NCBI GenBank assembly: GCA_964016885.1
Contig: OZ024757.1
Coordinates: 37,820,001-37,884,000 of the forward strand
Reading direction: 5' to 3'
DNA from: Eledone cirrhosa
Lineage: Eukaryota
Length of the DNA stretch: 64,000 nucleotides
The first letter of the stretch is position 1, and each line of letters begins with the position of its first letter. The notes under the pieces are model-generated. The model was not told the origin of the DNA. It searched no databases and worked only from the letters and a program-made list of their open reading frames with translations. A program made the position numbers and the translations under genes. Below, one piece after another: positions 41,641 through 41,836 of the stretch.

Positions 41641-41644
<4 letters not shown>

Positions 41645-41836
41645 CAAAGAAATTGTTGTAAGGAACAAGATGGACCATAACGCACCAGAGTACTCAATAC
41701 TTAGGGTCGTAGAGTTGGAAATAGGAAAAAGTATGACCTCGACGGCAGAGCTGAAGCCGTTTCGATGGCTATTTCTGGACAGAAATCGCCGTCGAAACGG
41801 CTTGAGCTCTGCCGTCGGGGTCATACTTTTTCCTAT
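41641..41836. mobile_element. Family B fold-back copy
   Basis: Arms 41721-41775 / 41781-41836; GAAACggc..gccGTC-ggggtc on the arms; (TA)n on both sides. Confidence 0.88.

What the first reader, a model, noticed from the sequence alone, without database searches (positions are those of the whole stretch)
41641..41836. Family B inverts inside predicted HHR stem II and lacks CUGANGA in every copy
Seen: in the 41641, 45698 and 50787 copies the palindrome centre is a hairpin directly 5' of GAAAC-ggc..gcc-GTC/GTT-gggg, and no B copy here has the CUGANGA half. Family E (20296) behaves the same way. Inference: the cDNA stalls or snaps back at stem II, so inserted copies carry two 3' half-ribozymes and are catalytically dead unless complemented in trans.
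Basis: partly seen in the sequence, partly recalled or inferred. Interest (0 to 1): 0.7.

Follow-up and report, generated by a model that had tools for sequence, protein, structure and literature searches.

The report
Penelope retroelement cap-ended palindromic fragments
These 200-base palindromes, found in tens of thousands of copies, are truncated insertions of a Penelope-like retrotransposon whose long copies carry a predicted hammerhead ribozyme with a variant core, and they likely end where the element's capped RNA begins rather than where copying stalls, which would give a way to test how such elements replicate.

Summary
Family B is the short, inverted, 5'-truncated form of a Penelope-like element (PLE) with Hydra-clade motifs (full-length copy L102).

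CUGANGA is missing because the parent uses the known U3-A8 core, UUGAnAA. There are 7,350 parental 5' halves; only 9 copies with CUGANGA were found.

Breakpoints lie in the predicted stem II domain but form a wall at a conserved YAGT motif: 53 of 62 arms that reach +7 end between -6 and +7. Arms ending there often carry a non-parental G (90 of 100 versus A; 0 of 100 long copies), the known footprint of reverse-transcribing a cap. So the wall is likely the transcription start.

Snap-back cannot give copies whose tailless arm is the longer one (15 of 22 clean asymmetric junctions); two target-primed cDNAs joined head to head fit better. Family A breaks upstream of its CUGANGA, about 23-30 nt after a TATA box, and family E's parent has canonical CUGAUGA. 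No RNA data were available; start site and cleavage are untested.

The parts
41644..41836 (-). Family B short inverted insertion of a Hydra-type PLE, flanked by (TA)n
   Evidence: same arm and tail as full-length element L102
41644..41720 (-). ~80-nt PLE tail (parent positions +62 to +139; in the parent it is 5' leader upstream of the ATG at +232)
41721..41780 (-). Tail-bearing arm, 5' end at parent position +2
41780..41836 (+). Tailless inverted arm, parent positions +5 to +61
41794..41821 (+). 3' half of predicted type I hammerhead: GAAAC, stem III with palindromic GAGCTC loop, GUC triplet (41814-41816), stem I 3' strand
   Evidence: sequence; three-way junction in long copies
45698..45896 (-). 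Family B short inverted copy; arms end at +9 (tail arm) and +1 (tailless arm)
50809..51010 (-). Copy of a diverged subfamily (B'); tailless arm starts at the parental A+1 (50942) preceded by a non-parental G (50941)
   Evidence: one search compared with 88 long B' copies
55561..55699 (-). Family B copy, tail arm reaching -3, short inverted partner
21492..21564 (+). Family B copy: tailless arm from +10 joined to an inverted tail tip
49295..49369 (+). Family B tail-only fragment
20296..20620 (+). Family E inverted copy (arms 20317-20368/20417-20468); a different family whose long copies have canonical CUGAUGA and a very long stem II; end coordinate approximate
45935..46130 (+). Family A inverted copy (arms 45935-45988/46004-46057) that retains CTGATGA; comparison family; end coordinate approximate

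Best explanation
Family B copies are short inverted insertions of a Penelope-like retrotransposon with Hydra-clade motifs, likely made when its reverse transcriptase primes on both strands of a cut (TA)n target, starts at the two tail borders in the RNA's 5' leader, runs off what is likely the capped 5' end inside stem II of a predicted U3-A8 hammerhead, and the two short cDNAs are then likely joined head to head. Shown: parent element and ORF; UUGAnAA core; fixed 3' ends at +61 and +139; breakpoint wall at YAGT; extra G; both arms from one subfamily. Inferred: that A+1 is the transcription start, that the G comes from the cap, dual priming, end joining by 0-2 nt microhomology or small insertions, and ribozyme activity. 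A start inside stem II would leave the 5' leader with only half a ribozyme, so only the 3' pseudo-LTR of a transcript would be able to cleave.
For: Parent: L102 has a 3,118-nt unit and a 718-aa ORF from its ATG with RWR, DKT, YRDD, CxCx5C, VIY-YIG, CxxC and CxH, matching the Hydra description in PMC8557442 section 11. Core: 7,350 parental 5' halves versus 15 control hits; first 100 rows, by hand, 70 UUGAnAA, 24 CUGAnAA, 6 other, 0 with G8, all four bases at position 7. G8 in 25 copies, 9 of them CUGANGA (lower bound). B' long copies also use UUGAnAA, with three compensatory pair changes in stem II relative to B, read by eye. Four of 5 long copies fold into the hammerhead junction as MFE; 94% of cells paired versus 32-56% for slid controls. 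Wall: of the first 100 tail hits on C1, 62 reach +7, 53 end in -6..+7, 2 at -11/-19 and 7 beyond -220; 55 of 73 partner arms end in the same zone. Extra G: in centres where both arms reach +1 and are flanked by purines (432 elements), the first 50 give 42 G+G, 6 mixed and 2 A+A, by hand; long copies have only T or C there (100 of 100). Cap-derived G is documented for L1 and SVA (PMC4859970, PMC3287187 passages). Two primings: tailless arm longer in 15 of 22 clean asymmetric junctions, 10 of them with the tail arm ending at +16 or later; two internal RT starts define the tail in vitro (PMC11167929). Family A's wall lies up to 13 nt upstream of C3, with TATAAATA/TATGAATA 35-37 nt upstream of C3.
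Against: No RNA evidence: only assembled contigs were offered, and 4 of 4 runs laid gave no cover. 33 of the 42 G+G centres could be local templated insertions (22 are CTG/CAG); without them 24 of 34 arms have G. The wall is about 12 nt wide and overlaps a distal helix, and many arms extend to -1..-5, so several starts or microhomology blur it. The TATA-like element at -29..-31 in B is not conserved in B'. No compensatory change within the 18 close B copies. About a quarter of parental cores are a C3-A8 mismatch. The ORF has no Pfam or PDB hit and no tree was built.
Confidence: 0.72

Rival explanations
1. One reading: RT stalls in stem II, or the cDNA folds back on itself there, giving a hairpin copy.
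For: Breaks do cluster in the stem II domain and coincide with the 3' strand of the distal helix; arms are nearly always of one subfamily (37 of 51 identical versus 403 of 2,550 between copies).
Against: The distal helix is the weakest element measured (-3.2 versus -5.6 for stem III). Zero-loop and 1-3 nt centres with C...G cannot be fold-back primed. A tail-bearing arm cannot be copied from a tailless cDNA, yet the tailless arm is longer in 15 of 22 clean cases. Family A breaks upstream of its core, not in stem II.
Confidence: 0.1
2. The wall is an RNA 5' end made by processing (nuclease cut, ribozyme cut, recapping or trans-splicing) rather than by transcription initiation; the G is a terminal-transferase preference.
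For: Would also give run-off ends with added bases; A-runs after the arm end are seen.
Against: Conserved pyrimidine-A-G-T at the wall in B and B'; TATA spacing in family A; no excess of ends at the predicted hammerhead cut: 3 of the first 100 junctions versus most at the equivalent GTC-G context at +19 (the pattern sees only subfamilies with T or G after GGGGTC).
Confidence: 0.12
3. The palindrome is a fixed non-autonomous unit (MITE- or SINE-like) copied whole, with a centre that mutates after insertion.
For: Near-constant ~197-nt length among the best matches; very high copy number.
Against: ranks by likeness to the query, which selects that length. Centres differ from copy to copy, subfamily variants are symmetric in both arms, and each arm matches parental sequence up to the wall.
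Confidence: 0.06

Closest known systems
Hydra clade of C-terminal EN+ Penelope-like elements (Craig et al. 2021, PMC8557442)
   Same: Single RT plus C-terminal GIY-YIG ORF, DKT, CxCx5C linker, CxxC and CxH, (TA)n targets, pseudo-LTR with hammerhead, partial tandems, inverted 5'-truncated copies, tail at one end
   Different: RWR for RWK; unit 3.1 kb; tail ~80 nt rather than 30-40; U3-A8 core with extended stem II; most copies are ~200-nt palindromes ending at one site
U3-A8 hammerhead of Schistosoma mansoni Cercyon PLEs (Cervera and de la Pena 2014, PMC4209133)
   Same: U3-A8 in place of C3-G8 in a PLE pseudo-LTR; many single motifs; motif pairs on opposite strands noted there
   Different: Here stem III is a full 5 bp, stem II spans ~55 nt, and a C3-A8 mismatch variant is common
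Poseidon of Anolis carolinensis, internal RT initiation (Frangieh et al. 2024, PMC11167929)
   Same: Two RT start sites bracket the tail; both target strands are cut and extended
   Different: That work maps cDNA starts in vitro; the capped end point and the head-to-head join are inferred here from genomic copies
Drosophila virilis Penelope promoter (Schostak et al. 2008, PMC2377424)
   Same: Transcription starts within the pseudo-LTR, with an initiator
   Different: No matching downstream promoter element was shown here; the start is inferred
L1 twin priming and cap-derived 5' G (PMC4859970, PMC3287187)
   Same: Inversion by two primings; untemplated G at full-length 5' ends
   Different: In L1 the inverted parts are different stretches of the RNA; here both arms copy the same ~60 nt and both can reach the presumed cap
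Non-LTR retrozymes (bioRxiv 10.64898/2026.07.22.740005)
   Same: Non-coding, PLE-related, hammerhead-derived short repeats
   Different: Retrozymes are direct tandems with complete ribozymes; these are inverted monomers with half a ribozyme

Membership tests
Penelope-like element, Hydra clade | Single ORF, RT followed by C-terminal GIY-YIG endonuclease | tested here: met
   L102 ORF with YRDD and VIY...YIG by inspection; Pfam gave no hit
Penelope-like element, Hydra clade | RWK, DKT, CxCX5C linker, CxxC and CxH motifs | tested here: met
   RWR (variant), DKT, CNCPDRSIC, CNLC, CKH in L102 against section 11 of PMC8557442
Penelope-like element, Hydra clade | Pseudo-LTR partial tandem, inverted truncated copy, tail at one end, (TA)n target | tested here: met
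   L102 layout; tails abut TA repeats
Penelope-like element, Hydra clade | Falls in the Hydra clade in an RT phylogeny | not tested
   No reference Hydra proteins were fetched and no tree was built
Type I hammerhead ribozyme (long copies) | Core with 3-8 Watson-Crick pair, GAAA, NUH and three helices | tested here: met
   U3-A8 in 70 of the first 100 rows. The C3-A8 quarter does not meet it
Type I hammerhead ribozyme (long copies) | Self-cleavage at GUC | not testable with these tools
   No excess of cDNA ends at the cut site; no Rfam hammerhead among the 150 best window hits listed; long copies were not scanned against Rfam
Type I hammerhead ribozyme (short window copies) | Both halves of the core on one strand | tested here: not met
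Non-LTR retrozyme | Direct tandem units each with a complete hammerhead | tested here: not met
   Short copies are inverted monomers with half a core
MITE (DNA transposon derivative) | Terminal inverted repeats at both ends with a fixed interior | tested here: not met
   The tail lies outside the inverted repeat, the centre varies, and the parent encodes RT

The most novel reading that the evidence does not exclude
The short palindromes are integrated 'strong-stop' cDNAs of a Penelope-like element. RT starts in the 5' leader, copies to the cap, and in the minority of events jumps to the identical +1..+61 stretch of the 3' pseudo-LTR, which regenerates pseudo-LTRs and partial tandems much as LTR elements use their R region. 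Failed jumps are joined head to head. The start site placed inside the hammerhead keeps the leader uncleavable while the 3' copy can cut.
Probability: 0.3. Interest if true: 0.8.

Novelty: new variant of a known kind. Interest (0 to 1): 0.55.

Why it matters
[quoted passage not shown] Tens of thousands of copies here record where each cDNA starts and stops. If the wall is the capped start, they show that RT often initiates in the 5' leader on both target strands and runs off the cap. That gives a genomic way to map PLE promoters and a direct test of strand transfer. The family also shows that CUGANGA-only searches miss thousands of U3-A8 hammerheads in one genome.

Tried and rejected
Rfam scan of the window: the listed hits are microsatellite noise.
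CTGANGA within 8-38 nt of the B stem III: 57 hits; the 30 inspected are inverted arms, foreign DNA or junction sequence, none in hammerhead geometry.
A parental stem II identical to the inverted arm: 9 hits, all short inverted copies.
A second extra G at -6: dropped, since one long copy has it natively.
Excess of ends at the hammerhead cut site: not found.
First pair count used a mis-registered structure and is void (redone).
The 257-arm histogram includes regions chosen for long copies, so its long fraction is inflated; the 100-tail set was used instead.
One of 7 family A references was a short copy flagged in error.
RNA runs: contigs only, no cover; no evidence either way.
Pfam and PDB: no hits.
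Earlier findings: none returned.
PMC9578709 passages held nothing on cap-derived G.

Full report
Observation. The window comes from a 3.0-Gb, microsatellite-rich genome (G000). The three copies named are real: an ~80-nt tail followed by a 48-57 nt inverted repeat, set in (TA)n. Three further pieces lie at 55561, 21492 and 49295. None of the four B copies scanned, nor E, has a hammerhead 5' core on either strand. The family is large: 60,892 exact hits of a 19-nt arm core, 37,896 of a 25-nt tail motif and 18,647 inverted centres, with 0 control hits each. Positions below are numbered from the A of the parental YAGT motif (+1). GAAAC starts at +19, the predicted cut is at +41/+42, the tailless arm ends at +61 and the tail at +139.

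Parent. Six of the first 30 arm-core hits continue upstream without inversion. L102 holds a tandem with a 3,118-nt unit, the tail leading into a 231-nt leader, and a 718-aa ORF from its ATG. By inspection it has RWR, DKT, YRDD, a CxCx5C linker, VIY...YIG, CxxC and CxH, the features given for the Hydra clade in PMC8557442 (section 11 read; passages). The same paper describes inverted 5'-truncated copies, tails and (TA)n targeting as general PLE traits. Pfam and PDB gave no hit and I built no tree, so the clade rests on motifs. That paper's supplements, which I did not read, may already list this family.

Why CUGANGA is absent. Long copies read ACCCC-TTGAnAA-G, then a stem II 5' strand. There are 7,350 such 5' halves against 15 control hits. 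Among the first 100 I count by hand 70 UUGAnAA, 24 CUGAnAA, 6 other and none with G8, with all four bases at the free position 7. Only 25 copies have G8, 9 of them true CUGANGA (five-C variants are missed, so a lower bound), which looks like sporadic mutation. The subfamily of the 50787 copy has 88 long copies, none with C3, mostly UUGAUAA, 6 with G8; its stem II differs from B by three compensatory pairs, read by eye. Four of 5 long copies fold into the three-way junction as MFE, though two of the five z-scores are weak. The structure is 94% paired over 18 copies versus 32-56% when slid, with no two-sided change among these close copies. U3-A8 was reported in Schistosoma PLEs (PMC4209133, passages and section 5). 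Activity is untested.

Where the arms end. I fetched all of the first 100 exact tail hits on contig C1 and extended each against long references. 38 appear to end downstream of +7; some of these are internal deletions between two short direct repeats. 62 reach +7; of these 53 end between -6 and +7, two at -11 and -19, and seven run beyond -220. 73 of the 93 non-long arms have an adjacent inverted tailless arm by my filter, and 55 of those 73 end in the same zone. But the parental 5' strand of stem II is not copied; the hairpin in short copies is simply arm against arm.

Stall or RNA end. The wall lies on a weak distal helix (-3.2 kcal/mol, against -5.6 for stem III and -11.0 for all of stem II), reached after the stronger helices are passed. 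The base before +1 is T or C in 100 of 100 long copies. In centres where both arms reach +1 and are flanked by a purine (432 elements), the first 50 give 42 G+G, 6 mixed and 2 A+A, or 90 G of 100 arms (hand count). 33 of the 42 could be local templated insertions; without them 24 of 34 arms still have G, including two zero-spacer palindromes and forms with C followed by added As. Among 100 arms with +1 intact, 18 have G and 4 have A before it, 10 of the 18 being joins to the partner's TTCTG (hand count). The 50787 copy itself has the extra G at 50941. An untemplated 5' G is attributed to the cap in L1 and SVA (PMC4859970, PMC3287187; passages), and D. virilis Penelope starts transcription inside its pseudo-LTR (PMC2377424, passages). 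That YAGT resembles an initiator is my recall. A TATA-like stretch lies at -29 to -31 in all 22 B references but not in B', so it is weak support.

Comparison families. In family A, 6 true long copies have TATAAATA or TATGAATA 35-37 nt upstream of C3. None of 43 short arms extends more than 13 nt upstream of C3, and 30 of 43 reach the start of the core (arms taken from regions fetched for B; one of 7 references was flagged in error). So the wall moves with a predicted promoter, not with stem II. In family E, 8 of 15 exact hits carry canonical CTGANGA 85 nt upstream of GAAAC; the few short copies do not define a wall.

One cDNA or two. The variable stem I segment is identical between the arms of a copy in 37 of 51 cases, against 403 of 2,550 between copies, so both arms come from one source or subfamily. 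A fold-back copy must be shorter than its template and cannot gain a tail from a tailless template. Yet the tailless arm is longer in 15 of 22 clean asymmetric junctions, 10 with the tail arm ending at +16 or later. Fixed 3' ends at +61 and +139 match the two internal RT starts that define the tail in Anolis Poseidon, whose protein cuts and extends both strands (PMC11167929, parts 1-2 of 4 read). Most junctions have 0-2 nt overlap or small inserts. I infer two target-primed cDNAs joined head to head.

Ribozyme role. cDNA ends are not enriched at the predicted cut: 3 of the first 100 of 627 junctions, most of the rest being at the same GTC-G context at +19 (the pattern covers only some subfamilies). 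Short copies hold one half per strand, paired to its antisense (-98 kcal/mol), so rescue in trans is unlikely. A start inside stem II would leave the leader uncleavable and the 3' pseudo-LTR complete (inference).

Novelty. The element, inverted copies and U3-A8 core are of known kinds; retrozymes differ in being direct tandems (bioRxiv 10.64898/2026.07.22.740005, part 1 of 5 read). Searches listed no paper on start-site-bounded, cap-marked inverted PLE fragments; the library lacks most subscription papers and Repbase. The boldest reading is that these are failed strong-stop cDNAs and that a jump to the 3' pseudo-LTR regenerates long copies. The clean junction in 100 of 100 long copies gives it no direct support, and read-through transcripts of tandems explain long copies equally well. 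No raw RNA reads were on offer.

Verdict: observation partly confirmed, interpretation partly supported, new variant of a known kind, interest 0.55.

Noticed in passing
G000 long B copies, e.g. L180:1501-1524: About a quarter of parental cores are C3-A8, a mismatch at the conserved 3-8 pair, seen mostly in one subfamily; these may be inactive ribozymes in elements that still spread.
   Followed up: partly
G000:C1:4947013-4947073 and C1:18731494-18731562: Arms ending near +1 followed by A-runs of about 17-18 nt, as if RT reiterated on the U-run at the template end or added a tail.
   Followed up: no
window 28945, 33879, 36830, 49826, 46153, 33173, 19274, 20013: Other CTGANGA motifs, several with GAAA downstream, in short repeats; likely further PLE families with canonical minimal hammerheads.
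   Followed up: no
window 48942-49298 (-): 118-aa open frame resembling the C-terminus of an RTE-type LINE (recalled resemblance), directly beside a family B tail fragment.
   Followed up: no
window 37763-38110 (+): 115-aa open frame resembling a mariner transposase N-terminus (recalled resemblance).
   Followed up: no
L101:955-3097 (-): 714-aa open frame of a second, Penelope/Poseidon-like PLE next to a family B element.
   Followed up: no
L031, L040, L053: Three B arms are fused at their 5' end to the same foreign repeat near the same position, possibly template switches to another PLE RNA.
   Followed up: no
window 52503-58213: About 5.7 kb of TA-rich microsatellite interrupted by one family B copy at 55561.
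   Followed up: no
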